A DNA stretch of 64,000 nt, from the NCBI GenBank assembly GCA_021647705.1, contig JAKIUF010000002.1:137295-201294 (forward strand), in the 5' to 3' direction. Both the position numbers and the translations under genes were made by a program. Every line of letters starts with the position of its first letter. Position 1 is the stretch's first letter. The notes under the pieces were generated by a model. It did no database searches, was not told the origin of the DNA, and saw only the letters and a list, made by a program, of their open reading frames with translations. The DNA is from Gammaproteobacteria bacterium (GTDB lineage: Bacteria > Pseudomonadota > Gammaproteobacteria > SZUA-152). Shown here one piece after another: positions 2,190 to 64,000 of this stretch.

Positions 2190-4198
2190 GTGTACGCCCA
2201 GCATGGGCATGAACTCAATATAGAAATAGAAAAGAAGACACCCAGTGCGCCGAGATAAATCGGTAGTTAATCAATTGGTGAAAGCCCAATACACAGTAAG
2301 AGCTAGCCACTCGCTGTGGCCCCGAGTCATGAGCTGTTATCGAAAGAGACACAGTTAAGCGTTGACAGGGGAACGTACAGGCTCAGTATTGAGCTCCGAA
2401 ATCACATTGAGAACGTTGACCTTGTTGGGTGAAGGGGAAGACCCTATTGATAACCTCGAAAATGGCAAGAGGTTGTCAAGCTCTCCGGAGTCATAGACCT
2501 GGTGCATGTACGAATGTTAACTACGCGGAACTCGGGAGCCCCTGTGTTTGATCAGCGCCAATCCAACCTCTAGTAGGAGGCAATGGTCGGGTTGAGGAAA
2601 TAAACCAAATAATCTCAACATCAACAAACACAGGGAGTCGGACAAAACCATAGTAGTGAAGAAGCAGGCGAACAAAGAGAGCAAGAGGAAAAAAAATGAC
2701 ATATTTCAATCCCCTTTGCCATCAGCGGAGTCAGTGGAGCGAAGGGTTTTGGCTAAGAGAAAGTTTGAGTAAACCCACCGAGACCTTGACGCAGAGCAAG
2801 GAAGAAACAGGCAGGGCACTGCACAGACTACATGAAGTCGCTAAACGAGATTCCCATCTCACATTCAACAACCTGCTACACCATCTGAGTATAGAAAAGC
2901 TCACACGAGCCTACTATGCGCTCAATCGAAAAGCAGCAAAAGGTGTTGATGAGCAAAGCTGGGACGACTATGGAGAAAACCTCCAGGAAAAGGTCAGCGC
3001 ATTACACACAAAACTGCATACCCAACGTTATCAACCACAACCCACAAAACGAGTCTGGATACCCAAAGCGAGCGGTCAACTAAGACCGATAGGCATCACT
3101 GCCATCGAGGATAAAGTGGTGCAGCAAGCCTTAGTCTGGGTGATGGAGTCGATATACGAAGCAGACTTTCTGGGTTTCAGCTACGGCTTCAGGCCAAATC
3201 GAAACCCACATCAGGCGCTGGACGTTGTCTACATTGCATTGACGGAAAAGAAAGTAAGCTGGGTGCTGGATGCCGACATACAAGGATTCTTCGATCACAT
3301 AGATCATGGCTGGATGATGAAATTCATTGAGCATCGGATCAGTGATAAAAGAATACTGGGACTACTGAAAAAGATACTAAAAGCAGGTGTGATAGAAGAA
3401 GGGAAATGGTCAAAGACGCGGATTGGAACCCCGCAAGGAGCTGTTATATCACCGCTACTAGCGAATATATACCTGCACTACGTCCTAGACCTATGGGCAC
3501 ATCAGTGGCGAAGAAAATACGCGCGAGGTGAAGTCTACATCGTACGATACGCCGACGATTTTGTACTGGGTTTCCAGTACAGAATAGACGGTGAACATTT
3601 TCACCAAGCCCTGATAGAAAGACTGAAATGCTTTGGACTGACATTGCACCCAGAGAAAACACGACTCATTGAATTTGGTCGGTTCGCTGAAAGCAATAGA
3701 AGAGAAAGAGGAGCGGGTAAGCCGGAAACATTTGATTTTCTAGGCTTCACGCACCTGTGCAGCAACAAGCGAAACAATAAAGGATTTAGCGTGCGCCGAC
3801 AGACCATCAGCAAAAGGCTGAGAGCCACGGTAAAAAGGATCAAAGAACAGCTGAAAAGAAACAACATGTTCAATGTTCACCGGCAGGGACGCTGGCTTCG
3901 CAAGGTGATGCAAGGTTTGATTAACTATTATGGCGTACCGGGAAACAGCACCGCGTTGGCAAGGCTGCGAACGGAAATGTGTTGTAACTGGCGAAAGTCA
4001 TTAAGGCGTCGAGGAAACAAAAGGCCGATAAACTGGCTGCAAATGACGAAGTTAATCAACCGCTGGATACCCAAAGTCAGCGTGGTTCACCCATACCCGA
4101 ATCAGCGGCGTTGTGTTTGACTCGAAGCAGGAGCCGGATGCGTTAGTAGCGCAAGTCCGGATCTGCGCCGGAGGCCTGACAAATGAGAACTGTAATGA
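2190..4198 (+). mobile_element. Group II intron (bacterial class C-like; reverse transcriptase without an En domain); boundaries approximate
   Basis: 5' GTGTACGCCCAGCATGGGCATG resembles the Ll.LtrB 5' end GTGCGCCCAGATAGGGTG (an alternative 5' end is GTGCG at 2245); ORF in domain IV; domain V-like GAGCCGGATGCG..CGCAAGTCCGGATC with AGC triad and 2-nt bulge at 4128-4165; sits right after a hairpin. Confidence 0.7.
2696..4120 (+). CDS. ltrA: Group II intron reverse transcriptase/maturase (intron-encoded protein)
   Basis: RT motifs (RPIGITAIEDKVVQQA, FDHIDH, YADDFVLG, TQGAVISPLLANIYL) and X/maturase domain; no C-terminal HNH/En domain. Confidence 0.9.
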   Translation: MTYFNPLCHQRSQWSEGFWLRESLSKPTETLTQSKEETGRALHRLHEVAKRDSHLTFNNLLHHLSIEKLTRAYYALNRKAAKGVDEQSWDDYGENLQEKVSALHTKLHTQRYQPQPTKRVWIPKASGQLRPIGITAIEDKVVQQALVWVMESIYEADFLGFSYGFRPNRNPHQALDVVYIALTEKKVSWVLDADIQGFFDHIDHGWMMKFIEHRISDKRILGLLKKILKAGVIEEGKWSKTRIGTPQGAVISPLLANIYLHYVLDLWAHQWRRKYARGEVYIVRYADDFVLGFQYRIDGEHFHQALIERLKCFGLTLHPEKTRLIEFGRFAESNRRERGAGKPETFDFLGFTHLCSNKRNNKGFSVRRQTISKRLRATVKRIKEQLKRNNMFNVHRQGRWLRKVMQGLINYYGVPGNSTALARLRTEMCCNWRKSLRRRGNKRPINWLQMTKLINRWIPKVSVVHPYPNQRRCV

Positions 4199-46529: not shown

Positions 46530-46596
46530 TCAGCGGTCTTTATTGGTCCCGCAATTTTCCTGATTGCGGGCAAGATGTTAGAATTTCCCACGTTTG

Positions 46597-46672
<76 letters not shown>

Positions 46673-49848: not shown

Positions 49849-49924
49849 TGGCAAGTGCGCTACCCGGTAGGCGGTCTCACTGTTAATGAGGTGTATGCCG
49901 GTTCGAGTCCGGCCTTGCCAGCCA
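49849..49924 (+). tRNA. tRNA-Asn(GUU)
   Basis: Hand-folded cloverleaf: acceptor TGGCAAG/CTTGCCA, anticodon arm TCTCA-CTGTTAA-TGAGG, T arm GCCGG-TTCGAGT-CCGGC, ends GCCA. Confidence 0.65.
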
Positions 49925-49953
49925 ATTAACTGTCTGAAAAGGAGGTATAGAAA

Positions 49954-50142
49954 ATGAAGGTGATGAAGCTAGAGAGACGATTTGAATCATTAATCGCGAC
50001 GATGAATGTACCTCAAACCCGAAAGAAAGGAACTGCAATTAATGCATTGTGGTTTTTAAGGGATGGGGCAATTGCTAACAGAACACATAAAAATGTTCAT
50101 GAAGCCAGTGAGATTGCGGTGAAATTAGCTAACGCTCATTAA
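49954..50142 (+). CDS. Hypothetical 62-aa protein inside the tRNA array (strong SD)
   Basis: AAAGGAGG 8 nt upstream of ATG. Confidence 0.4.
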   Translation: MKVMKLERRFESLIATMNVPQTRKKGTAINALWFLRDGAIANRTHKNVHEASEIAVKLANAH

Positions 50143-50169
50143 CGAAGAATGAATTTATTAAGCAGTATA

Positions 50170-50242
50170 TGCACCTGTAGCTGAGTCGGAATAGCGCGAC
50201 ACTGAAAATGTCGAAACGGTCGTTCAATTTGTCCCAGGTGCA
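50170..50242 (+). tRNA. tRNA-Phe(GAA)-like, probably degenerate (imperfect T-stem, no encoded CCA)
   Basis: Perfect acceptor GCACCTG/CAGGTGC, D arm, anticodon arm CGACA-CTGAAAA-TGTCG; T-arm pairs poorly. Confidence 0.4.
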
Positions 50243-50250
50243 TCAGATAT

Positions 50251-50327
50251 GGCCCGTTAGCATAGTGGTTGGATGCAAACGATTGTCAGGCGTGAGATCG
50301 CGGATTTAAATTCCGCACGGGCCGCCA
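50251..50327 (+). tRNA. tRNA-Asp(GUC)-like, degenerate (weak anticodon stem, T-loop TTTAAAT)
   Basis: Perfect acceptor GGCCCGT/ACGGGCC plus GCCA, D arm GCAT/ATGC, loop TTGTCAG gives anticodon GTC. Confidence 0.35.
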
Positions 50328-50586
50328 GTAGCGCCGCAGGTAATGACAGTAAACAACTTGTGAGCACGGCTGAAATATAGCCAAGGTGTGAACCAGAGGA
50401 CTTGGCCATTTGTTAATCCTCAGTTGGTTGTTTAACCAAAAAGTAGGTATGGCGCAGTTATTGATGAAATGGGGCGACCATTACTTGCGGTTTTTTTTAA
50501 AGTCACATTCGCTAAGCTGGCAGGGTTCTCAATCAATAATCGAGGGATCCCTGGTTGAGGCTTAGGATGTGGCACCAATGATTAAT

Positions 50587-50663
50587 GGTGAAAGTAGCTT
50601 AATGGGTAAAGCTTCTGATTGTGAATCAGATAGATGCCGGATCATCCCCGGTCTTTCACCCCA
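50587..50663 (+). tRNA. tRNA-His(GUG) with G-1, C73 and encoded CCA
   Basis: G-1 + GTGAAAG/CTTTCAC acceptor, anticodon arm TCTGA-TTGTGAA-TCAGA, C73, CCA; T-loop ATCATCC is non-canonical. Confidence 0.6.
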
Positions 50664-50696
50664 TTATTATTTAAATAATAAAAGGGAAAAGAAATT

Positions 50697-50772
50697 GGGT
50701 TGCTAGCTCAACTGGCAGAGCAATCGCCTTTTAAGCGATAGGTTCGGGGATCGTTCTCCCGGCAGCCCACCA
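50697..50772 (+). tRNA. tRNA-Lys(UUU)
   Basis: Acceptor GGGTTGC/GCAGCCC, D arm GCTC-AACTGGCA-GAGC, anticodon arm ATCGC-CTTTTAA-GCGAT, ACCA end; T-loop ATCGTTC unusual. Confidence 0.6.
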
Positions 50773-50927
50773 AACATCACATGTTACATCATTGTAATGT
50801 GATAACAGCGTTGAAACAGCACTGCATTGTTCAGCGGTTCAGGTTCTGTATGCCTGGCCTGCGCACCAACACTTAGCGAAAGCAATCGTACGGTGTGTAC
50901 AGATCAATTGTGGTGATTTCGACATCC

Positions 50928-51001
50928 ACCAGGATAGCTCAGTTGGGTAGAGCAACTGATTTTTAATCAGTTTGTCGCAGGTTCGATTCCTGCTCCAGGC
51001 A
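50928..51001 (+). tRNA. tRNA-Lys(UUU)-like with two acceptor-stem mismatches (possible pseudogene or att remnant)
   Basis: D arm GCTC-AGTTGGGTA-GAGC, anticodon arm ACTGA-TTTTTAA-TCAGT, canonical T arm GCAGG-TTCGATT-CCTGC; acceptor ACCAGGA/TCCAGGC mismatched; no CCA. Confidence 0.35.
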
Positions 51002-58915: not shown

Positions 58916-59849
58916 CTATCCGGACAAAACCGCACCCAATGGACTCACCACCGCATTTCCGCCCCGGTTCAGTACATGGGTATAGATTTGAGTGGTACGC
59001 ACATCTTTATGCCCCAACTGTTCCTGCACCGTTCGGATATCCATGCCCCGCTCCAGCAAATGCGTGGCAAAAGAATGACGCAACGTATGACAACTGGCGG
59101 GCTTGTGAATCCCCGCCTTGCGAATCGCCTTCTCATCAAAATGATGCCGCCGTTCCACGCCCGAACGAGGATCAATACTGCCACGCCCATTCCGTTGGCG
59201 CATTGGGATATTTTCGTGCCAGAGCATGGGGAAGGTAAACACTGCCAAAACCATCTGCCAAATCTTTATCGTGCGTTTGTCGTCGATTTTCCAGGTGTCG
59301 TTGCAAAGGCACAATCAACTCATCTGACAGCGTCACTACCCGGTCTTTCCCTCCTTTAGCGTTATGCACATAAATCGCACAGCGCAAAAAATCAAGATTC
59401 ATCACCCGCAAGCGTAAACATTCCATCAATCGCAAACCGGAACCGTACATCAAACAGGCCGCAAGCCAATAAAGACCATCCAGCCCTTGTAGAACCGCTT
59501 GTACCTCTTCACGCGTCAACACCACCGGAATCTTTTGCCGTGTTTTGGCGCGCGCCACCCCTTTCAAGCCCTCAATGGGCTGGTCCAACACCACGCGATA
59601 AAGAAACATCAAGGCATTAAAAGCCTGATTCTGTGTACTGGGGGCAACATTTCGATCTACCGCCAAATGCGTCAAAAATGCTGTTACTTCCCGTGCCCCC
59701 ATTTCACGAGGATGCTGTTTGTTATGGAAATAGATAAACCGCTTCACCCAGCCGCTATCAGCTTTTTCGGTTTTCCGGCTGTAATGACGCACACGAATTG
59801 CATCCGAAATCGAACACAGGAAAGGCGAAGAATAATTTGTCGAATCCAT
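58916..59849 (-). pseudogene. intI: Integron integrase intI with apparent frameshift near 59175-59200
   Basis: N-terminal 225-aa ORF (..[17 protein letters not shown]) and overlapping C-terminal ORF (..[50 protein letters not shown]) in different frames; IntI-specific extra domain present. Confidence 0.8.
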
Positions 59850-60305
59850 GACAGTGCTTCCTTAAATGATGCTGATGTTTTGTACAGTAATTTTTATAAT
59901 CCACAAATGCAAGTGGAATATTTTCCCACTTTGGGGTATTTCTACATTCAATATCCTGGCTACACCCCAATATTCCGCAGGGTAAAATGTCCTGAAAATT
60001 CCGACTATCTTATTGAGTTTAATAATTTTTTCAAAAAAATGAAAAAACAGAGCGAACAAAAAACAAACAAATTCACACTAAAAAATACCCCGTGTGATAT
60101 CCCCAAAATGTCTTATTTGCCCGTTTCAATATCCAGCAGGCTCAGGTCATTTTATACTCACCATGAAAATTACCCCGGTAATAAGTCATTGATTATTTAG
60201 TGGGTTTATTAGAGTATTGAGCGGAGCCGGGAATCATCGGCAAATAAATTATTGGATTTTGGGGCGGGGTTATCCCCCCACTCTGGGGTCCATTAAGCGT
60301 TAGAT
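59850..60305 (+). promoter_or_regulatory. attI/Pc region of the right-hand integron, ending in the GTTAGAT recombination core (60299-60305)
   Basis: Upstream of and divergent from intI; GTTAGAT fits GTTRRRY and is the reverse complement of the R'' core (ATCTAAC) of the first attC. Confidence 0.6.
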
Positions 60306-60320
60306 TTAAAAGAGAAATAT

Positions 60321-60826
60321 ATGATAGGAAGCTGGGAGATGTCATCGCTATCAGAACCCAAGCGATACTTTGAGTACTCAAAGGCATATATCCAAGCGAG
60401 CCTCGATATATGTAACAGCATGATAAGTGACAAAAATCGAGAAACATGGCCTAATGCTAATGTTGCATTAATGCTGGCAGCACATTCCGTCGAGCTATTT
60501 CTTAAAGGAGCAATACTCTTAAAGTCAAATAAAGCATGGGGGCACACACTTGAAAATTTAAATTCAACATATCATGATATTTATACTGAAAAAAACTTCA
60601 GTTTAACTGCCCTTTTAGAACCGAATATATAGAAATATCAGAAGAAGAGCAAAGGACTTTAAGAAAGAAAGAGCCTCAACAAAGCATACTTTTCCGCTAT
60701 CCTGTAAAAAAACCGGGAGTTGAATGGAATGGAGTATTTGGGTTTGAACCAAATGATTTTATCGATATTCTCAATGATTTAAATGCTAATTATAATAAGT
60801 TGATTTATAAACATGAAAATAATTAA
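60321..60826 (+). CDS. Hypothetical cassette protein; apparent frameshift near 60615-60632 splits it into two frames
   Basis: ORF 60321..60632 continues in another frame to 60826; 3' end overlaps the protease gene start. Confidence 0.4.
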
Positions 60827-61757
60827 AAATATATTACTAGTCATATTGCCCTTAATACAATCACATGTATATGCACTAGACTCAGGAGAAATATATAAGA
60901 AAAGCATTGAATCTGTGGTTACAGTAGTATCCTTAGATAAAGACAACAAAATATTAATGACAGGAACGGGCTTCTTTGCAAAACATAAAAACCTAATCGC
61001 AACAAATTACCATGTCATTAAAAACACGCACCATCTAAAAATAATAACCTCAGATGATAAGGAGCATAATATTTTTGATATATGCGTTGAAAACGCATCA
61101 AATGACATCGCAATATTACGATCAATTCCTGAAAGACAGCCTTTATCTTTAAATAAAAACACACCAAGTATTGGTGATAAAATTATTTCCATTGGTAGCC
61201 CAATGGGATTATCAGGCAGCTTATCAACTGGCGTTATTGGTGCCATTAGAAAGAATGAAGGGCATAAATATTATCAAATAACATCACCGATATCGCCAGG
61301 CAGTAGTGGTGGCCCTGTTATTGATGAGAACGGACTCGTTCTTGGTATGACAACATTTTATATTAAAGGCGCTCAAAATTTAAATTTTGCAATACCATCC
61401 CCACGAATTTCAACTTATCTAAATACAAGCATGGAATGTTTAAAGAAAAGCAATACGCAGCCTGACACTGCATTGATAAATAAATATTCAGAATCTCTCT
61501 ACGAAAATTACTTAAAAAATAAAGACAGCTACCCTTCAGAAAGGCAAAATATAAAACCTGACGCATACCAATGTATCGCGCAACTCATCAGTGATTTTGG
61601 TACCAAAGAAGAAATTATCGCTCTAAACAATATGTTTATTAATAAGAGTAAATCATTAGATGTCCAGCTATCTCCATATAGAAAAAACATACTCAAATCA
61701 TTAATTAATAACTCAAGTAATAATGAGTGTCTTGCAACAAAAAAATCTAACAATTAG
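60813..61757 (+). CDS. Secreted trypsin-like (S1/DegP-core) serine protease with about 120-aa C-terminal extension of unknown function
   Basis: Signal peptide; catalytic His (TNYHVI), Asp (NDIAIL), Ser (SPGSSGGPV); no PDZ domain. Confidence 0.7.
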   Translation: MKIIKNILLVILPLIQSHVYALDSGEIYKKSIESVVTVVSLDKDNKILMTGTGFFAKHKNLIATNYHVIKNTHHLKIITSDDKEHNIFDICVENASNDIAILRSIPERQPLSLNKNTPSIGDKIISIGSPMGLSGSLSTGVIGAIRKNEGHKYYQITSPISPGSSGGPVIDENGLVLGMTTFYIKGAQNLNFAIPSPRISTYLNTSMECLKKSNTQPDTALINKYSESLYENYLKNKDSYPSERQNIKPDAYQCIAQLISDFGTKEEIIALNNMFINKSKSLDVQLSPYRKNILKSLINNSSNNECLATKKSNN

Positions 61758-61801
61758 CTCAAGCGGACGTAAAAAACACGCCGCTTAGCAAGGCGTTAGG
61801 G
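61745..61801 (+). other. Integron attC site 1 (57 bp): R'' ATCTAAC ... R' GTTAGGG
   Basis: Imperfect inverted repeat gctcAAGCGGacgt / cacgCCGCTTagc between the cores; R'' is the exact reverse complement of the attI core. Confidence 0.65.
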
Positions 61802-61808
61802 GTTAAAA

Positions 61809-62321
61809 ATGTCATTCAATCTTCCAGGCGTTAAACAAGATAGTGATATAGAATCGCTTTTCAAATCTGTCGGTTTTATTGTCGTGCAGTGGGGACACTG
61901 TGAACAGTCTCTGGAGTTGCTAGTTAATACATTGCACCGACAGTTTAGCGGCAGCAAATTACCAAAAAGGAAAAAGATGCCAAGGCAGCTATCTTCAAAA
62001 CTAGATTTTGTTAAAGAATGTGCATTAGGCATACCCGAATTATCTCCGTTTCAAGATGAACTTGAGAGATTGGTTCATGATTTCGAGGACATTAAGCAAA
62101 CTCGCCATGATTTAATACATGGAGCAATAACAGATGATCCAGTTATGGACGGCGTGTTTACCTTCATAAGGCTTCAGGCTGATTCAGATATTCATGAAGT
62201 AAAGCATTTTCAGTACGACTTGCATGATTTTCCAAGAATTTCAAAAATTCTCTTGCGTCTGGGAGCTGATTCACCAAAAGTGGCTCGTCGTATTTTTGAA
62301 GCAAGTCAAAAGATGCCATGA
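61809..62321 (+). CDS. Hypothetical cassette protein (170 aa)
   Basis: Between attC1 and attC2, co-oriented with the cassette array; no recognisable motif. Confidence 0.5.
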   Translation: MSFNLPGVKQDSDIESLFKSVGFIVVQWGHCEQSLELLVNTLHRQFSGSKLPKRKKMPRQLSSKLDFVKECALGIPELSPFQDELERLVHDFEDIKQTRHDLIHGAITDDPVMDGVFTFIRLQADSDIHEVKHFQYDLHDFPRISKILLRLGADSPKVARRIFEASQKMP

Positions 62322-62427: not shown

Positions 62428-62502
62428 CCCTAACAAACGCCTAGAGACCGACATATTTTGTCACTGCGTTCCAAAATATTCGGCTCAGGCTTAACGTTAT
62501 GC
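62428..62502 (+). other. Integron attC site 2 (75 bp): R'' CCCTAAC ... R' GTTATGC
   Basis: R'' is the exact reverse complement of attC1 R'; internal imperfect palindrome AACGCCTAGAGACCG / CGGCTCAGGCTTAACGTT. Confidence 0.65.
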
Positions 62503-62515
62503 CAAAAGGAAATGA

Positions 62516-62778: not shown

Positions 62779-63039
62779 TTATTGTGGAGTGATGATTAAT
62801 CGATTTTGAGTAACTTGTACACAAATAGGAAGCCCAATAACAAAGCCAGATTCTTCAAGCCATGTTCCTTTGAGTAAAATAAAAGGAGTTTTAGGGTTGC
62901 CTTTATGAGGCGCGGATTTTAAGCAATAGTCACGATGCCCTTCTCGAACTATAATATGACGTTTATTCATGATTATTTCCTTGTGCAAATGGTTAAAAAC
63001 CACCACCGCCAAGGTACGAATCTTAGGGTGGTGGGCCAT
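62779..63039 (-). CDS. symE: SymE-family type I toxin-like protein (SOS-induced toxin family)
   Basis: ..RDYCLKSAPHKGNPKTPFILLKGTWLEESGFVIGLPICVQVTQNRLIITPQ resembles the E. coli SymE core [42 protein letters not shown]. Confidence 0.55.
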   Translation of the reverse strand: MAHHPKIRTLAVVVFNHLHKEIIMNKRHIIVREGHRDYCLKSAPHKGNPKTPFILLKGTWLEESGFVIGLPICVQVTQNRLIITPQ

Positions 63040-63260
63040 ATGAGGTTCGTACTACCGCGCACAAGGAACGGCCACCCGAAGGTGCCCCATACAGCCCACC
63101 GTAAAAGGGGGCAAGCCACAAAAAAAGACGCTGGCTACAATGTAGGCGTCTTTCAGGTGGCACCTTGTGTCTTGCGGGGTACGAATCCCGGCCTGATTTA
63201 CATCAAGCAAATCAACTGTAATTTAATGAGTTGGCTCTGTCAACATCGTGCCAAAATATG

Positions 63261-63375: not shown

Positions 63376-63645
63376 ATGGTTAATTTTGTAAAATTATGGA
63401 ATAGCCACCCAACCGTAGAATCATTTATAGATGATTTCCCATGTAAGAAAAATGGCAAGAAGGCATTTGACAATCAGTGTGCAATTCGCATTGGAGTGGC
63501 ATTCGAAAAAACTGGTGTCAACCTTAAGTCATTCAAAGGTGCCAAATGTTGGCATAGTCATAAGCCAGCACATATTTTGCGCGCAGAAGAAATAGAAAAT
63601 TGGCTAAAAGGTCCATTTTCGCCTTTTAAAAACATAACAGAATAA
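63376..63645 (+). CDS. Tae4-like amidase effector N-terminal fragment, truncated by IS insertion
   Basis: NQCAIRIGVAFEKTG resembles the Tae4 catalytic-Cys region NACPIRMSYVLNATG; 89 aa against about 160 for full Tae4; the stop codon is supplied by the IS terminus. Confidence 0.4.
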   Translation: MVNFVKLWNSHPTVESFIDDFPCKKNGKKAFDNQCAIRIGVAFEKTGVNLKSFKGAKCWHSHKPAHILRAEEIENWLKGPFSPFKNITE

Positions 63646-64000
63646 AATAGGACACCCATCAATTAATTGACACTCTGGTCGATCCTCGTTAGATTGCAAG
63701 GCGTACAATTCACATGAAGGAGGCACGGATGCCAAAACCCCGCAAAAATCAGGTCTGCCTGGATTCAACCCCTTATTACCATTGCATCTCGCGCTGTGTA
63801 CGTCGTGCCTTTCTCTGTGGCAAAGACGAGTTCTCCGGCCAAAACTACGAACACCGGAAACAATGGGTTGTCGATAAACTCGCTGAATTAACCCGTGTTT
63901 TTTCTATCGACGTTTGTGCCTACGCTGTCATGAGTAATCATTACCATTTAGTCCTGCACATCAATCAGCCTCAAGCTTTGGCATGGTCTGATGATGAAGT
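63644..64000 (+). mobile_element. Second copy of the IS200/IS605-like element, inverted relative to copy 1, continuing beyond the window
   Basis: 63652-63728 is the reverse complement of 5481-5549; transposase ORF from 63729 almost identical to 4435..5481. Confidence 0.7.
63729..64000 (+). CDS. tnpA: HUH (Y1) transposase, partial (runs off the window)
   Basis: MPKPRKNQVCLDSTPYYHCISRCVRRAFLCGKDEFSGQNYEHRKQWVVDKLAEL.. near-identical to the copy-1 transposase. Confidence 0.7.
   Translation, partial: MPKPRKNQVCLDSTPYYHCISRCVRRAFLCGKDEFSGQNYEHRKQWVVDKLAELTRVFSIDVCAYAVMSNHYHLVLHINQPQALAWSDDE

What the first reader, a model, noticed from the sequence alone, without database searches (positions are those of the whole stretch)
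60321..61757. Cassette 1: unknown cytoplasmic protein (frameshifted?) translationally coupled to a secreted trypsin-like protease with a novel C-terminal domain
The two genes overlap (60813 versus 60826) inside a single integron cassette. The protease has a signal peptide and an intact His/Asp/Ser triad, plus about 120 C-terminal residues of unknown function. The upstream protein has no signal peptide and carries a possible -1/+2 frameshift near 60615-60632. Functional coupling of a secreted protease with a cytoplasmic partner in a mobile cassette suggests a toxin/immunity or defence-type module. I cannot place it in any described system.
Basis: partly seen in the sequence, partly recalled or inferred. 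Interest (0 to 1): 0.55.

Follow-up and report, generated by a model that had tools for sequence, protein, structure and literature searches.

The report
Decaying HEPN–secreted protease integron cassette
The first cassette of a degraded integron carries a conserved gene pair, a HEPN-fold protein (broken here by a one-base deletion) overlapping an exported trypsin-like protease, but the protease survives without its partner, so this is not a toxin/immunity pair, and whether the two genes work together at all remains unproven.

Summary
Cassette 1 (60300-61795) lies between an attI-side GTTAGAT core and a 57-nt attC. It holds two genes that overlap by 14 nt.

**Downstream gene.** It encodes an S1C (HtrA-like) protease without a PDZ domain. 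It has a signal peptide, an H67/D98/S165 triad and an orphan all-helical C-terminal domain with conserved cysteines.

**The pair.** The overlapping pair recurs in four other metagenomic contigs (L001, L059, L060, L061), and in a fifth (L067) with the HEPN gene decayed; all start at the same cassette boundary. Both genes are under purifying selection.

**Against an obligate link.**
- The HEPN family is mostly solo, and is often a single-gene cassette.
- The protease also pairs with an unrelated 2-TM protein.
- The HEPN gene has decayed twice independently while the protease stayed intact.

This excludes a protease-toxin/HEPN-immunity model. A looser functional link remains possible, because a sister HEPN clade sits beside Trypsin_2-TPR proteases. 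Interest is moderate to low.

The parts
58916..59849 (-). Integron integrase gene intI. It is a pseudogene, split into 225-aa and 132-aa ORFs by an out-of-frame internal deletion after ...EWAWQY.
   Evidence: TIGR02249 integrase_gron matches at 2.3e-85 (model positions 1-216) and 3e-39 (positions 222-313) on the two ORFs. The junction was read.
60299..60305 (+). attI-side recombination core GTTAGAT. Cassette 1 starts at T60300.
   Evidence: All six homologous cassettes start to align at G|TTAGATTTA and have unrelated DNA upstream.
60321..60826 (+). HEPN-fold protein gene. It would be 168 aa if repaired, but here it is a pseudogene. The 0-frame ORF 60321-60632 gives 103 aa (authentic up to about residue 91). 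The rest is read in the -1 frame up to the TAA at 60824-60826.
60589..60595 (+). Frameshift site. It is an A7 run created by loss of the G found in GAAAAAGAA of the intact homologues; the deletion lies between 60593 and 60594. As a side effect it forms the heptamer A_AAA_AAC in the 0 frame.
   Evidence: DNA alignment A2. The site is identical in L064 and L066. No significant downstream RNA structure was found (z = -1.0).
60813..61757 (+). Exported S1C (HtrA-like, PDZ-less) serine protease, 314 aa. The signal peptide is aa 1-21 (60813-60875). The catalytic domain is about aa 26-205, with H67 (61011-61013), D98 (61104-61106) and S165 (61305-61307).
   Evidence: Pfam Trypsin_2 5.5e-21. NCBIfam HtrA-type models match only the catalytic domain and fall far below their cut-offs. 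The best PDB matches are RsgI9 and HtrA1 catalytic domains. The triad is invariant in alignment A3.
61428..61754 (+). C-terminal domain of the protease (about aa 206-314). It is an orphan, all-alpha domain with three invariant cysteines.
61745..61801 (+). attC of cassette 1 (57 nt). R'' is ATCTAAC and R' is GTTAGGG. Cassette 1 ends at G61795. The protease stop codon lies inside the attC.
   Evidence: It folds at -19.2 kcal/mol with R''/R' and L''/L' stems and bulged bases.

Best explanation
This is a 1,496-bp two-gene integron cassette at the attI-proximal position of a decaying chromosomal integron in a gammaproteobacterial MAG.

**Gene 1.** It encodes, or used to encode, a cytoplasmic 168-aa protein with a HEPN fold from an uncharacterised family that often travels alone as an integron cassette. 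In this genome it is a recent pseudogene: one G was lost, which shifts the frame after codon 91.

**Gene 2.** It encodes a Sec-exported S1C serine protease. It has a catalytic H-D-S domain, no PDZ domain, and an orphan helical C-terminal domain that is probably disulfide-bonded. It most likely works in the periplasm or outside the cell.

**How the intact cassette works (inferred).** Both genes are transcribed from the integron promoter region. The protease has no Shine-Dalgarno sequence, so it is translated by termination-reinitiation at the ATGAAAATAATTAA overlap.

**Relationship between the two genes.** The protease does not need the HEPN protein. The pairing is a lineage-specific co-packaging of two separable genes, possibly with a shared role, and not an obligate toxin/antidote pair.

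**Consequence here.** Only the protease can now be made in full length. Its translation is probably reduced, because the upstream ORF now stops 181 nt before its start codon.

**Shown:** cassette boundaries, fold and family assignments, the lesion, conservation of the pair, and independent decay of gene 1.
**Inferred:** export, translational coupling, autonomy of function, and what the protease cleaves (unknown).
For: **Cassette anatomy and intI:**

**Pair conservation.** The same 14-nt overlap and the same cassette start occur in L001, L059, L060 and L061. dS between copies is 0.5-1.6, and dN/dS is about 0.07-0.23 for both genes.

**Separability.**
- Among the 58 HEPN-family loci scanned at that stage (several of them duplicates of one another), a protease neighbour turned up only in L001 and the L009-L011 group; the later context look-ups added L059-L061 and L069/L070.
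- HEPN homologues occur as solo cassettes with an attC directly after the stop codon, or in arrays with an intI: L003, L006, L017, L023, L033 and the Tenderia plasmid L074.
- The protease clade pairs with an 82-aa 2-TM protein in L068.
- A related secreted protease sits in its own cassette in L001.

**Autonomy of the protease.** In L067 the HEPN gene carries 34-, 17- and 5-nt deletions and further indels. The 316-aa protease there is intact, with dN/dS 0.19 against the window. The window lesion is an independent event.

**The lesion is real.** The sequence is identical in L064 and L066.

**No Shine-Dalgarno sequence before 60813:** read from the sequence.
Against: - Conservation of a tight overlap over large synonymous divergence is what a functionally linked pair would show.
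- Two-gene integron cassettes are usually functional modules (my own knowledge; not measured here).
- In an NJ tree, all HEPN homologues with a secreted Trypsin_2 or TPR neighbour fall in one clade. This includes a sister group (P0007, P0008) where a Trypsin_2-TPR protease lies convergently 17-36 nt away. That hints at an older association than simple co-packaging.
- Export was judged by eye only.
- The purifying selection seen on the L067 and window proteases may partly pre-date the loss of the HEPN gene.
Confidence: 0.5

Rival explanations
1. The pair is a genuine two-component conflict module, for example anti-phage or abortive infection. The exported protease and the cytoplasmic HEPN-fold protein would act in one pathway: the protease senses or processes something in the envelope, and the HEPN protein is the cytoplasmic effector or regulator. 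The copy in the window would be a recently disabled version.
For: - The 14-nt overlap is conserved in the window and four further contigs (L001, L059-L061) with both genes under purifying selection, and the overlap sequence also survives in L067, where the HEPN gene has decayed.
- The protease- or TPR-adjacent HEPN homologues (P0001-P0004, P0007-P0009, P0015) all fall in one clade of the NJ tree, and they show two different gene arrangements.
- The HEPN fold is typical of abortive-infection and toxin-antitoxin effectors (PMC3710099). A single-gene HEPN-like cassette, 'Esos', protects Vibrio cholerae from phage (10.1101/2024.07.02.601686).
- Family members are fused to HicB-like antitoxin or wHTH domains.
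- Losing the effector first is a common decay route for toxic modules (my own knowledge).
Against: - The two products are predicted to be in different compartments, and no transmembrane relay is present in the cassette.
- No PADLOC system matches.
- The HEPN protein lacks the Rx4-6H catalytic motif.
- Most family members are solo, and P0010 inside the same clade has no called neighbour.
- The protease pairs with a different partner in L068.
- The proteases in the two arrangements are only about 30% identical. With about 40 loci inspected, one extra chance adjacency is not very improbable (my rough estimate is about 0.1).
Confidence: 0.3
2. The frameshift is a recoding device. The A7 run (A_AAA_AAC in the 0 frame) would allow -1 ribosomal frameshifting or transcriptional slippage. 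The cell would then make both a truncated 103-aa product and some full-length HEPN protein, and would keep the protease translationally coupled.
For: - The heptamer fits the X_XXY_YYZ pattern in the correct frame.
- A -1 shift there restores a product of exactly the homologous length.
- The lesion is fixed in at least two independent assemblies.
Against: - All four intact homologues read GAAAAAGAA, so the site is not conserved and is best explained as a simple deletion.
- The downstream RNA folds no better than shuffled sequence (z = -1.0, 34 of 200 shuffles fold at least as well).
- The neighbouring intI is also a pseudogene, and L067 shows outright decay of the same gene.
Confidence: 0.05
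3. The protease is a toxin and the upstream protein is its cytoplasmic immunity or antitoxin. This is the strict form of the first reader's idea.
For: Only the overlapping two-gene layout inside a mobile cassette supports it.
Against: - The upstream gene has been inactivated twice independently while the protease ORF stays intact and constrained.
- The protease clade exists with a different partner, and relatives occur alone.
- The protease is predicted to be exported, away from a cytoplasmic partner.
Confidence: 0.03
4. The frameshift is a sequencing or assembly artefact at a homopolymer, and the gene is intact in the organism.
For: The lesion sits in a run of seven A, which is a classic error site.
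Against: The same 1,570-nt sequence, including the A7 run, was recovered from a separate run (Logan SRR32233993). It is also present in NCBI assembly GCA_021647965.1. The second broken gene nearby (intI) is broken by a multi-codon deletion and not at a homopolymer.
Confidence: 0.03

Closest known systems
HEPN domain proteins of the PF05168 / MNT-associated type (for example AF0298 2hsb, the sacsin HEPN domain 3o10, and the HEPN toxins 7ae2 and 5yep)
   Different: The score is below the Pfam cut-off. A profile search finds no PDB relative. There is no Rx4-6H motif; the invariant residues are H55, E58, K62, H75 and Y127, with R126 nearly invariant. A 55-residue, poorly predicted insert lies between helices 3 and 4. 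No MNT nucleotidyltransferase partner is present.
'Integron cassette HEPN' family (PDB 3jrt) of Anantharaman et al. 2013, and the single-gene HEPN-like anti-phage cassette 'Esos' of the Vibrio cholerae chromosomal integron
   Same: They occupy the same niche: small HEPN-fold proteins carried as integron cassettes (PMC3710099; 10.1101/2024.07.02.601686). Relatives of the window protein are likewise solo cassettes.
HtrA/DegP/DegQ/DegS (S1C) periplasmic serine proteases
   Same: It has the same catalytic domain and the same H-D-S triad with a GxSGG motif. It is exported by a signal peptide. The PDB and NCBIfam matches cover residues of about 45-205.
   Different: It has no PDZ domain. It scores 88 bits against a cut-off of 416 for TIGR02037, and is likewise far below the DegS and DegQ models. 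It has an orphan helical, cysteine-bearing C-terminal domain. It is cassette-borne and AT-rich, so it is not a housekeeping gene.
Secreted Trypsin_2-TPR fusion proteases
   Same: They are among the next-closest sequence relatives of the catalytic domain (32-47% identity, about 480 aa). They also have signal peptides. One such protease lies next to HEPN homologues of the sister clade.
   Different: The window protein's C-terminal domain shows no TPR signal. It is about 110 aa long, compared with about 230 aa of repeats.
Retron type XI RT-protease (PADLOC RT-Protease_XI)
   Same: It is the best PADLOC hit (E 3.7e-20), covering the trypsin-like domain.
   Different: The similarity is at domain level only. 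There is no reverse transcriptase and no ncRNA. The retron protease is cytoplasmic and fused, whereas this one is exported.

Membership tests
Integron gene cassette | Bounded by recombination sites with GTTRRRY-type cores: attI or an upstream attC on one side, and a folded attC with R''/L''/L'/R' on the other. | tested here: met
   GTTAGAT lies at 60299-60305. The attC at 61745-61801 has paired R''/R' and L''/L' stems with bulges.
Integron gene cassette | Located next to an integron integrase gene. | tested here: met
   intI lies at 58916-59849 and matches TIGR02249 at 2.3e-85 and 3e-39. It is inactivated by an internal deletion.
Integron gene cassette | The same unit is found with identical boundaries in different arrays, which is evidence of mobility. 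| tested here: met
   Six contexts share the G|TTAGATTTA start and have unrelated upstream DNA. In L001 the pair is followed by an attC and then other cassettes.
HEPN superfamily | Four-helix up-down bundle fold. | tested here: met
HEPN superfamily | Rx4-6H catalytic RNase motif between helices 3 and 4. | tested here: not met
   The conserved R126-Y127-P128 is followed by VKKPGVEW, with no histidine 4-6 residues downstream. This was read from a 58-sequence alignment.
HEPN superfamily | Pfam PF05168 gathering score of 22 bits. | tested here: not met
   The window protein scores 14.4 bits, E 0.043. Other family members reach 17-19 bits.
HEPN-MNT toxin-antitoxin system | An adjacent minimal nucleotidyltransferase (MNT) gene. 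| tested here: not met
   The only partner in the cassette is the protease. No recurrent neighbour of that kind was found across the neighbour ORFs clustered from all HEPN-family loci held at that point.
HtrA/DegP family (S1C) | Trypsin-fold catalytic domain with a His-Asp-Ser triad. | tested here: met
   Trypsin_2 matches at 5.5e-21. H67, D98 and S165 are invariant. HtrA1 and DegP catalytic domains match at E 1e-11 to 1e-16.
HtrA/DegP family (S1C) | One or two C-terminal PDZ domains. | tested here: not met
   No PDZ hit was found, either in the whole protein at E<=1 or in the C-terminal domain alone at E<=10.
HtrA/DegP family (S1C) | NCBIfam equivalog or subfamily cut-offs (DegP, DegQ, DegS, HhoA). 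| tested here: not met
   The best score is 88 bits against a cut-off of 416. All 12 matching models are far below threshold.
Type II toxin-antitoxin pair | Both products are cytoplasmic, and the antidote is indispensable while the toxin is intact. | tested here: not met
   The protease carries a signal peptide. The upstream gene was lost twice with the protease intact.
Type II toxin-antitoxin pair | One product is toxic and the other neutralises it. | not testable with these tools
   This needs expression experiments.
Known anti-phage defence systems (PADLOC-DB 2.0) | Significant match of the proteins to the components of one described system. | tested here: not met
   Only a domain-level hit of the protease to RT-Protease_XI was found. 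The HEPN protein's best hit has E 0.014.
Programmed -1 frameshift site | Slippery X_XXY_YYZ heptamer in the 0 frame. | tested here: met
   A_AAA_AAC lies at 60590-60596 in the 0 frame.
Programmed -1 frameshift site | The site and the two-frame layout are conserved in homologues. | tested here: not met
   All four intact homologues have GAAAAAGAA and a single ORF.
Programmed -1 frameshift site | A stimulatory RNA structure downstream. | tested here: not met
   The MFE is -12.6 kcal/mol and the z-score is -1.0 against shuffles.

The most novel reading that the evidence does not exclude
A subclade of a non-canonical HEPN-fold family (no Rx4-6H motif) may be ancestrally linked to exported trypsin-like proteases. 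The link would appear either as an overlapping operon in integron cassettes or as a convergent Trypsin_2-TPR neighbour. Together they would form an undescribed two-compartment conflict or stress module, in which an envelope protease and a cytoplasmic HEPN protein act in one pathway. The window would hold a recently disabled copy.
Probability: 0.25. Interest if true: 0.6.

Novelty: new member of a known kind. Interest (0 to 1): 0.35.

Why it matters
Most integron cassettes have no known function, and some have recently been shown to be compact anti-phage systems.

This cassette adds three things:
- a well-defined, uncharacterised HEPN-fold family (545 clusters) that recurs as an integron cassette;
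- an exported S1C protease with an orphan C-terminal domain;
- a conserved overlapping pairing of the two.

If the pairing is functional, it would be an unusual module spanning the cytoplasm and the envelope.

If it is not, the locus is still a clean natural experiment. It shows that the protease is kept by selection after its partner decays, and it shows how a one-base deletion can uncouple a translationally coupled cassette gene.

For annotation, it corrects two things:
- an uncalled pseudogene: the public gene table for this locus lists no gene upstream of the protease;
- a protease that could be mistaken for a housekeeping HtrA.

Tried and rejected
- **PDB profile search with the HEPN family.** Only chance hits were found, E >= 0.35.
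- **Viral contigs.** They hold no relative of the HEPN family.
- **Search with the protease C-terminal domain alone.** It returned nothing, not even the known clade members, so it is uninformative beyond 'no distant relatives found'. Pfam at E<=10 gave only scattered single-member noise.
- **The afdb50 fold library.** It was not available.
- **The second 164-aa + 299-aa protease pair in L001.** I considered it a second example of the architecture. I rejected this because a GTTAGAT core with a short attC-like remnant separates the two genes, and the 164-aa protein is unrelated.
- **A universal conserved partner for the HEPN family.** Neighbour clustering found none. The TPR association is confined to a few loci.
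- **Promoter scan.** Counts of promoter-like sites are not above shuffled expectation (14 against 9.7 +/- 3.1), so the site at 60768-60796 upstream of the protease is not evidence.
- **Literature.** Searches for a cassette-borne HEPN-protease pair found nothing relevant. The supplementary file of the Vibrio integron paper held no Esos sequence.
- **PHROGs.** There is no hit for the HEPN protein and only generic protease families for the protease.
Full report
**1. What is in the sequence**

The region lies at the right-hand end of the window, immediately after a divergently oriented integron integrase gene.
- intI (58916-59849, minus strand) is split into 225-aa and 132-aa ORFs. They match the integron-integrase model TIGR02249 over positions 1-216 and 222-313.
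- The junction reads ...EWAWQY* followed out of frame by [13 protein letters not shown]. This is an internal out-of-frame deletion, not a homopolymer slip.
- A GTTAGAT core at 60299-60305 marks the attI-side crossover point.
- A 57-nt attC at 61745-61801 has R'' ATCTAAC and R' GTTAGGG. It has L''/L' stems with bulged bases and folds at -19.2 kcal/mol. It closes the first cassette.
- A further attC-like site around 62428-62503 (read by eye) and other small ORFs follow.
- Cassette 1 is therefore 60300-61795 (1,496 bp). Its GC content is 33.5%, against 47% for the window.

**2. The upstream gene and its frameshift**

- The 0-frame ORF 60321-60632 gives 103 aa. A second frame continues to the TAA at 60824-60826.
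- A joined 168-aa sequence finds 69 homologues. The best are 73-83% identical and intact at 168-178 aa.
- DNA alignment with four intact relatives shows the exact lesion. They read ACnGAAAAAGAA, and the window reads ACTGAAAAA-AA. One G was lost between 60593 and 60594, which creates the A7 run 60589-60595.
That is only the tail of the out-of-frame ORF.
- The same sequence, including the A7 run, is present at 100% identity in NCBI assembly GCA_021647965.1 (L064) and in a Logan assembly of run SRR32233993 (L066). A one-off assembly error is therefore unlikely.
- The run happens to form A_AAA_AAC in the 0 frame, and a -1 slip there would restore a product of homologous length. However, the site is absent from all intact homologues, and the downstream RNA folds no better than shuffles (z = -1.0). 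I treat recoding as a low-probability rival.

**3. What the upstream protein is**

- Pfam gives only a sub-threshold HEPN match (PF05168, E 0.043, 14.4 bits against a cut-off of 22). NCBIfam gives nothing, and PADLOC and PHROGs give nothing meaningful.
- A profile built from 58 family members finds 545 clusters (at 50% identity) among 1.84 billion representatives. Nearly all are single-domain proteins of about 170-190 aa.
- AlphaFold2 with that alignment gives a confident helical bundle (pLDDT 84.7, pTM 0.81). A poorly predicted stretch at about residues 101-140 lies between the third and last long helices.
- The catalytic signature is not present. The invariant residues are Y23, V48, L52, H55, E58, L59, F60, L61, K62, H75, F99 and Y127, and R126 is nearly invariant. 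No histidine lies 4-6 residues after R126.
- A few members are fused to a LexA/MarR-type wHTH domain (P0056), a HicB-like antitoxin domain (P0337) or DUF7662 (P0330). This places the family in the toxin-antitoxin/regulator gene pool without defining its activity.

**4. The protease**

- ORF 60813-61757 (314 aa) matches Trypsin_2 at 5.5e-21.
- It matches HtrA-type NCBIfam models only over the catalytic domain and far below their cut-offs (88 bits against 416 for TIGR02037). The best PDB matches are S1C catalytic domains (RsgI9, HtrA1, DegP). No PDZ domain is present.
- H67, D98 and S165 are invariant in the clade.
- The N-terminus (MKIIK / NILLVILPLI / QSHVYA|LD) has the form of a Sec signal peptide. 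Every complete homologue keeps a small residue at -3 and -1 (VYA, AHA, VHA, SFA, SYA). This was judged from the sequence, because no predictor was available.
- Four cysteines are conserved across the eight clade members, three of them in the C-terminal domain. This fits an oxidising compartment.
- The C-terminal ~110 residues have no Pfam match. Full-length matches that include this domain are limited to eight proteins of 50-100% identity.
- The 'novel C-terminal domain' claim therefore stands, in the sense of an orphan domain confined to a small clade.

**5. Is the pair a unit?**

Yes, within a clade.
- In L001, L059, L060 and L061 a HEPN homologue (76-86% identical to the repaired window protein) is followed by the protease homologue with the same 14-nt overlap.
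- All copies begin at the same cassette boundary and have unrelated DNA upstream. In L001 an attC follows the protease.
- Synonymous divergence between copies is large (dS 0.5-1.6), while dN/dS is about 0.07-0.23 for both genes.
- The two genes give incongruent distances. L001 is the nearest HEPN gene to the window but the most distant protease of the four full-length copies compared (L067, L061, L059, L001). This suggests recombination between cassette variants.
- No Shine-Dalgarno sequence precedes the protease ATG in the window, as read from the sequence. Translational coupling is therefore a reasonable inference. The frameshift, which moves the upstream stop codon to 181 nt before the protease start, should weaken protease translation.

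**6. Is the pairing obligate?**

No.
- Among 58 HEPN-family loci from genomes and metagenomes, the protease was found next to the gene only in L001 and in the L009-L011 group. Neighbour clustering finds no universal partner.
- Several homologues are single-gene cassettes with an attC directly after the stop codon, or sit in arrays with an intI: L003, L006, L017, L023, L033 and a Candidatus Tenderia plasmid.
- The protease clade member in L068 (51% identical, same C-terminal domain) is coupled by a 4-nt overlap to an unrelated 82-aa protein with two hydrophobic segments. That pair sits in its own cassette after a HigA-type cassette.
- A more distant secreted protease in L001 sits in a separate cassette.
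- Most telling is L067, the closest relative of the window cassette (85% nucleotide identity). Its HEPN gene carries 34-, 17- and 5-nt deletions and further indels, yet its 316-aa protease is intact, with dN/dS 0.19 against the window.
- The window lesion is a different, independent event. Two independent losses of the upstream gene with the protease retained exclude the model in which the upstream protein is an essential antidote to the protease. They also show that the protease is useful on its own.
- In L015 the reverse may have happened. The HEPN gene is intact, and only the first six protease codons remain before unrelated DNA. The contig is too short to judge.

**7. Evidence that keeps a functional link alive**

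- L069 and L070 (HEPN 55% identical) have a 432-aa signal-peptide-bearing Trypsin_2-TPR protease lying convergently, 17 nt after the HEPN stop codon.
- L009-L011 (HEPN about 52-55% identical to the window) have the orthologous protease, interrupted by an IS3-family element.
- L014 and L002 have TPR proteins adjacent.
- In a neighbour-joining tree of the family, all of these fall with the window clade in one branch (P0001-P0010 and P0015).
- This could reflect an old association that has been rearranged. The caveats are as follows:
  - L009 and L069 are related loci and count as one extra event.
  - Their protease is only about 30% identical to the window's.
  - P0010 in the same branch has no called neighbour.
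  - With roughly 40 independent loci inspected, I estimate the chance of one coincidental adjacency at around 0.1.

**8. Verdict**

- The most likely reading (about 0.5) is a lineage-specific two-gene cassette. It co-packages two separable genes: a HEPN-fold protein of unknown activity and an autonomous exported S1C protease. It is expressed by coupling, and in this genome it is half-decayed inside an integron whose integrase is also dead.
- A true two-component conflict module is the main rival (about 0.3).
- Strict toxin/immunity, programmed recoding and artefact are each unlikely (0.05 or less).
- Neither gene belongs to a curated family, and I found no published description of the pair. 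However, the parts belong to known superfamilies and no joint mechanism is shown. I therefore rate it a new member of a known kind, with moderate to low interest.

Noticed in passing
window 62779-63106 (-): A C4 antisense RNA (Rfam RF01695, 59 bits against a gathering score of 45) lies at 63024-63106. It overlaps the 5' end of a SymE_toxin-like ORF at 62779-63039 on the same strand (Pfam 1.2e-11). The arrangement looks like an RNA-regulated type I toxin module lodged in the cassette array.
   Followed up: no
window 61809-62321 (+), cassette 2: A 170-aa ORF with no Pfam, NCBIfam or PDB match contains the sequence TRHDLIHG, which fits an Rx4H motif. It could be a second, canonical HEPN-type cassette protein next to the non-canonical one. 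Its only weak hit is PADLOC PDC-M10A at E 0.047.
   Followed up: partly
window 63376-63645 (+): An 89-aa ORF matches only the first 54 of 125 positions of the Tae4 T6SS amidase effector model (1.1e-8). It is probably a truncated effector gene within the array.
   Followed up: no
window 58916-59849 (-): The integron integrase is a pseudogene, broken by an out-of-frame internal deletion and not by a homopolymer error. The array can no longer be rearranged by its own integrase.
   Followed up: yes
window 63730-64000 (+): An ORF starting MPKPRKNQVCLDSTPYYHCISRC...MSNHYHLVLH runs off the window end. By eye it resembles a REP-associated/IS200-type tyrosine transposase. It follows a GTTAGAT core at 63689-63695.
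   Followed up: no
window 2281-4120 (+): Group II intron domains D1-D4 (Rfam RF02005, 164 bits) lie at 2281-2500. A 474-aa ORF follows at 2696-4120 and is presumably the intron-encoded protein.
   Followed up: no
window 49849-51001 (+): A cluster of six tRNA genes lies within about 1.2 kb. One further tRNA gene lies at 46596-46669.
   Followed up: no
L015 1511-1621: In this 84%-identical relative, the HEPN gene is intact. The protease is cut off after six codons (MKIIKS*) and replaced by unrelated DNA that carries the end of a convergent ORF. This may be the reciprocal loss, in which the protease is deleted and the HEPN gene is kept.
   Followed up: partly
L062 586-1356 and P0087: A Zn_ribbon_4 + DUF3426 gene lies about 0.6 kb upstream of a HEPN homologue in L062. 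The same DUF3426 domain is fused to a Trypsin_2 protease in P0087. This is another faint thread between this HEPN clade and envelope trypsin-like proteases.
   Followed up: no
L068 393-1579: The protease clade member in L068 is translationally coupled (ATGA overlap) to an 82-aa protein with two hydrophobic segments. The pair is a separate cassette after a HigA-like cassette. It may be an envelope-located protease/partner pair worth testing on its own.
   Followed up: partly
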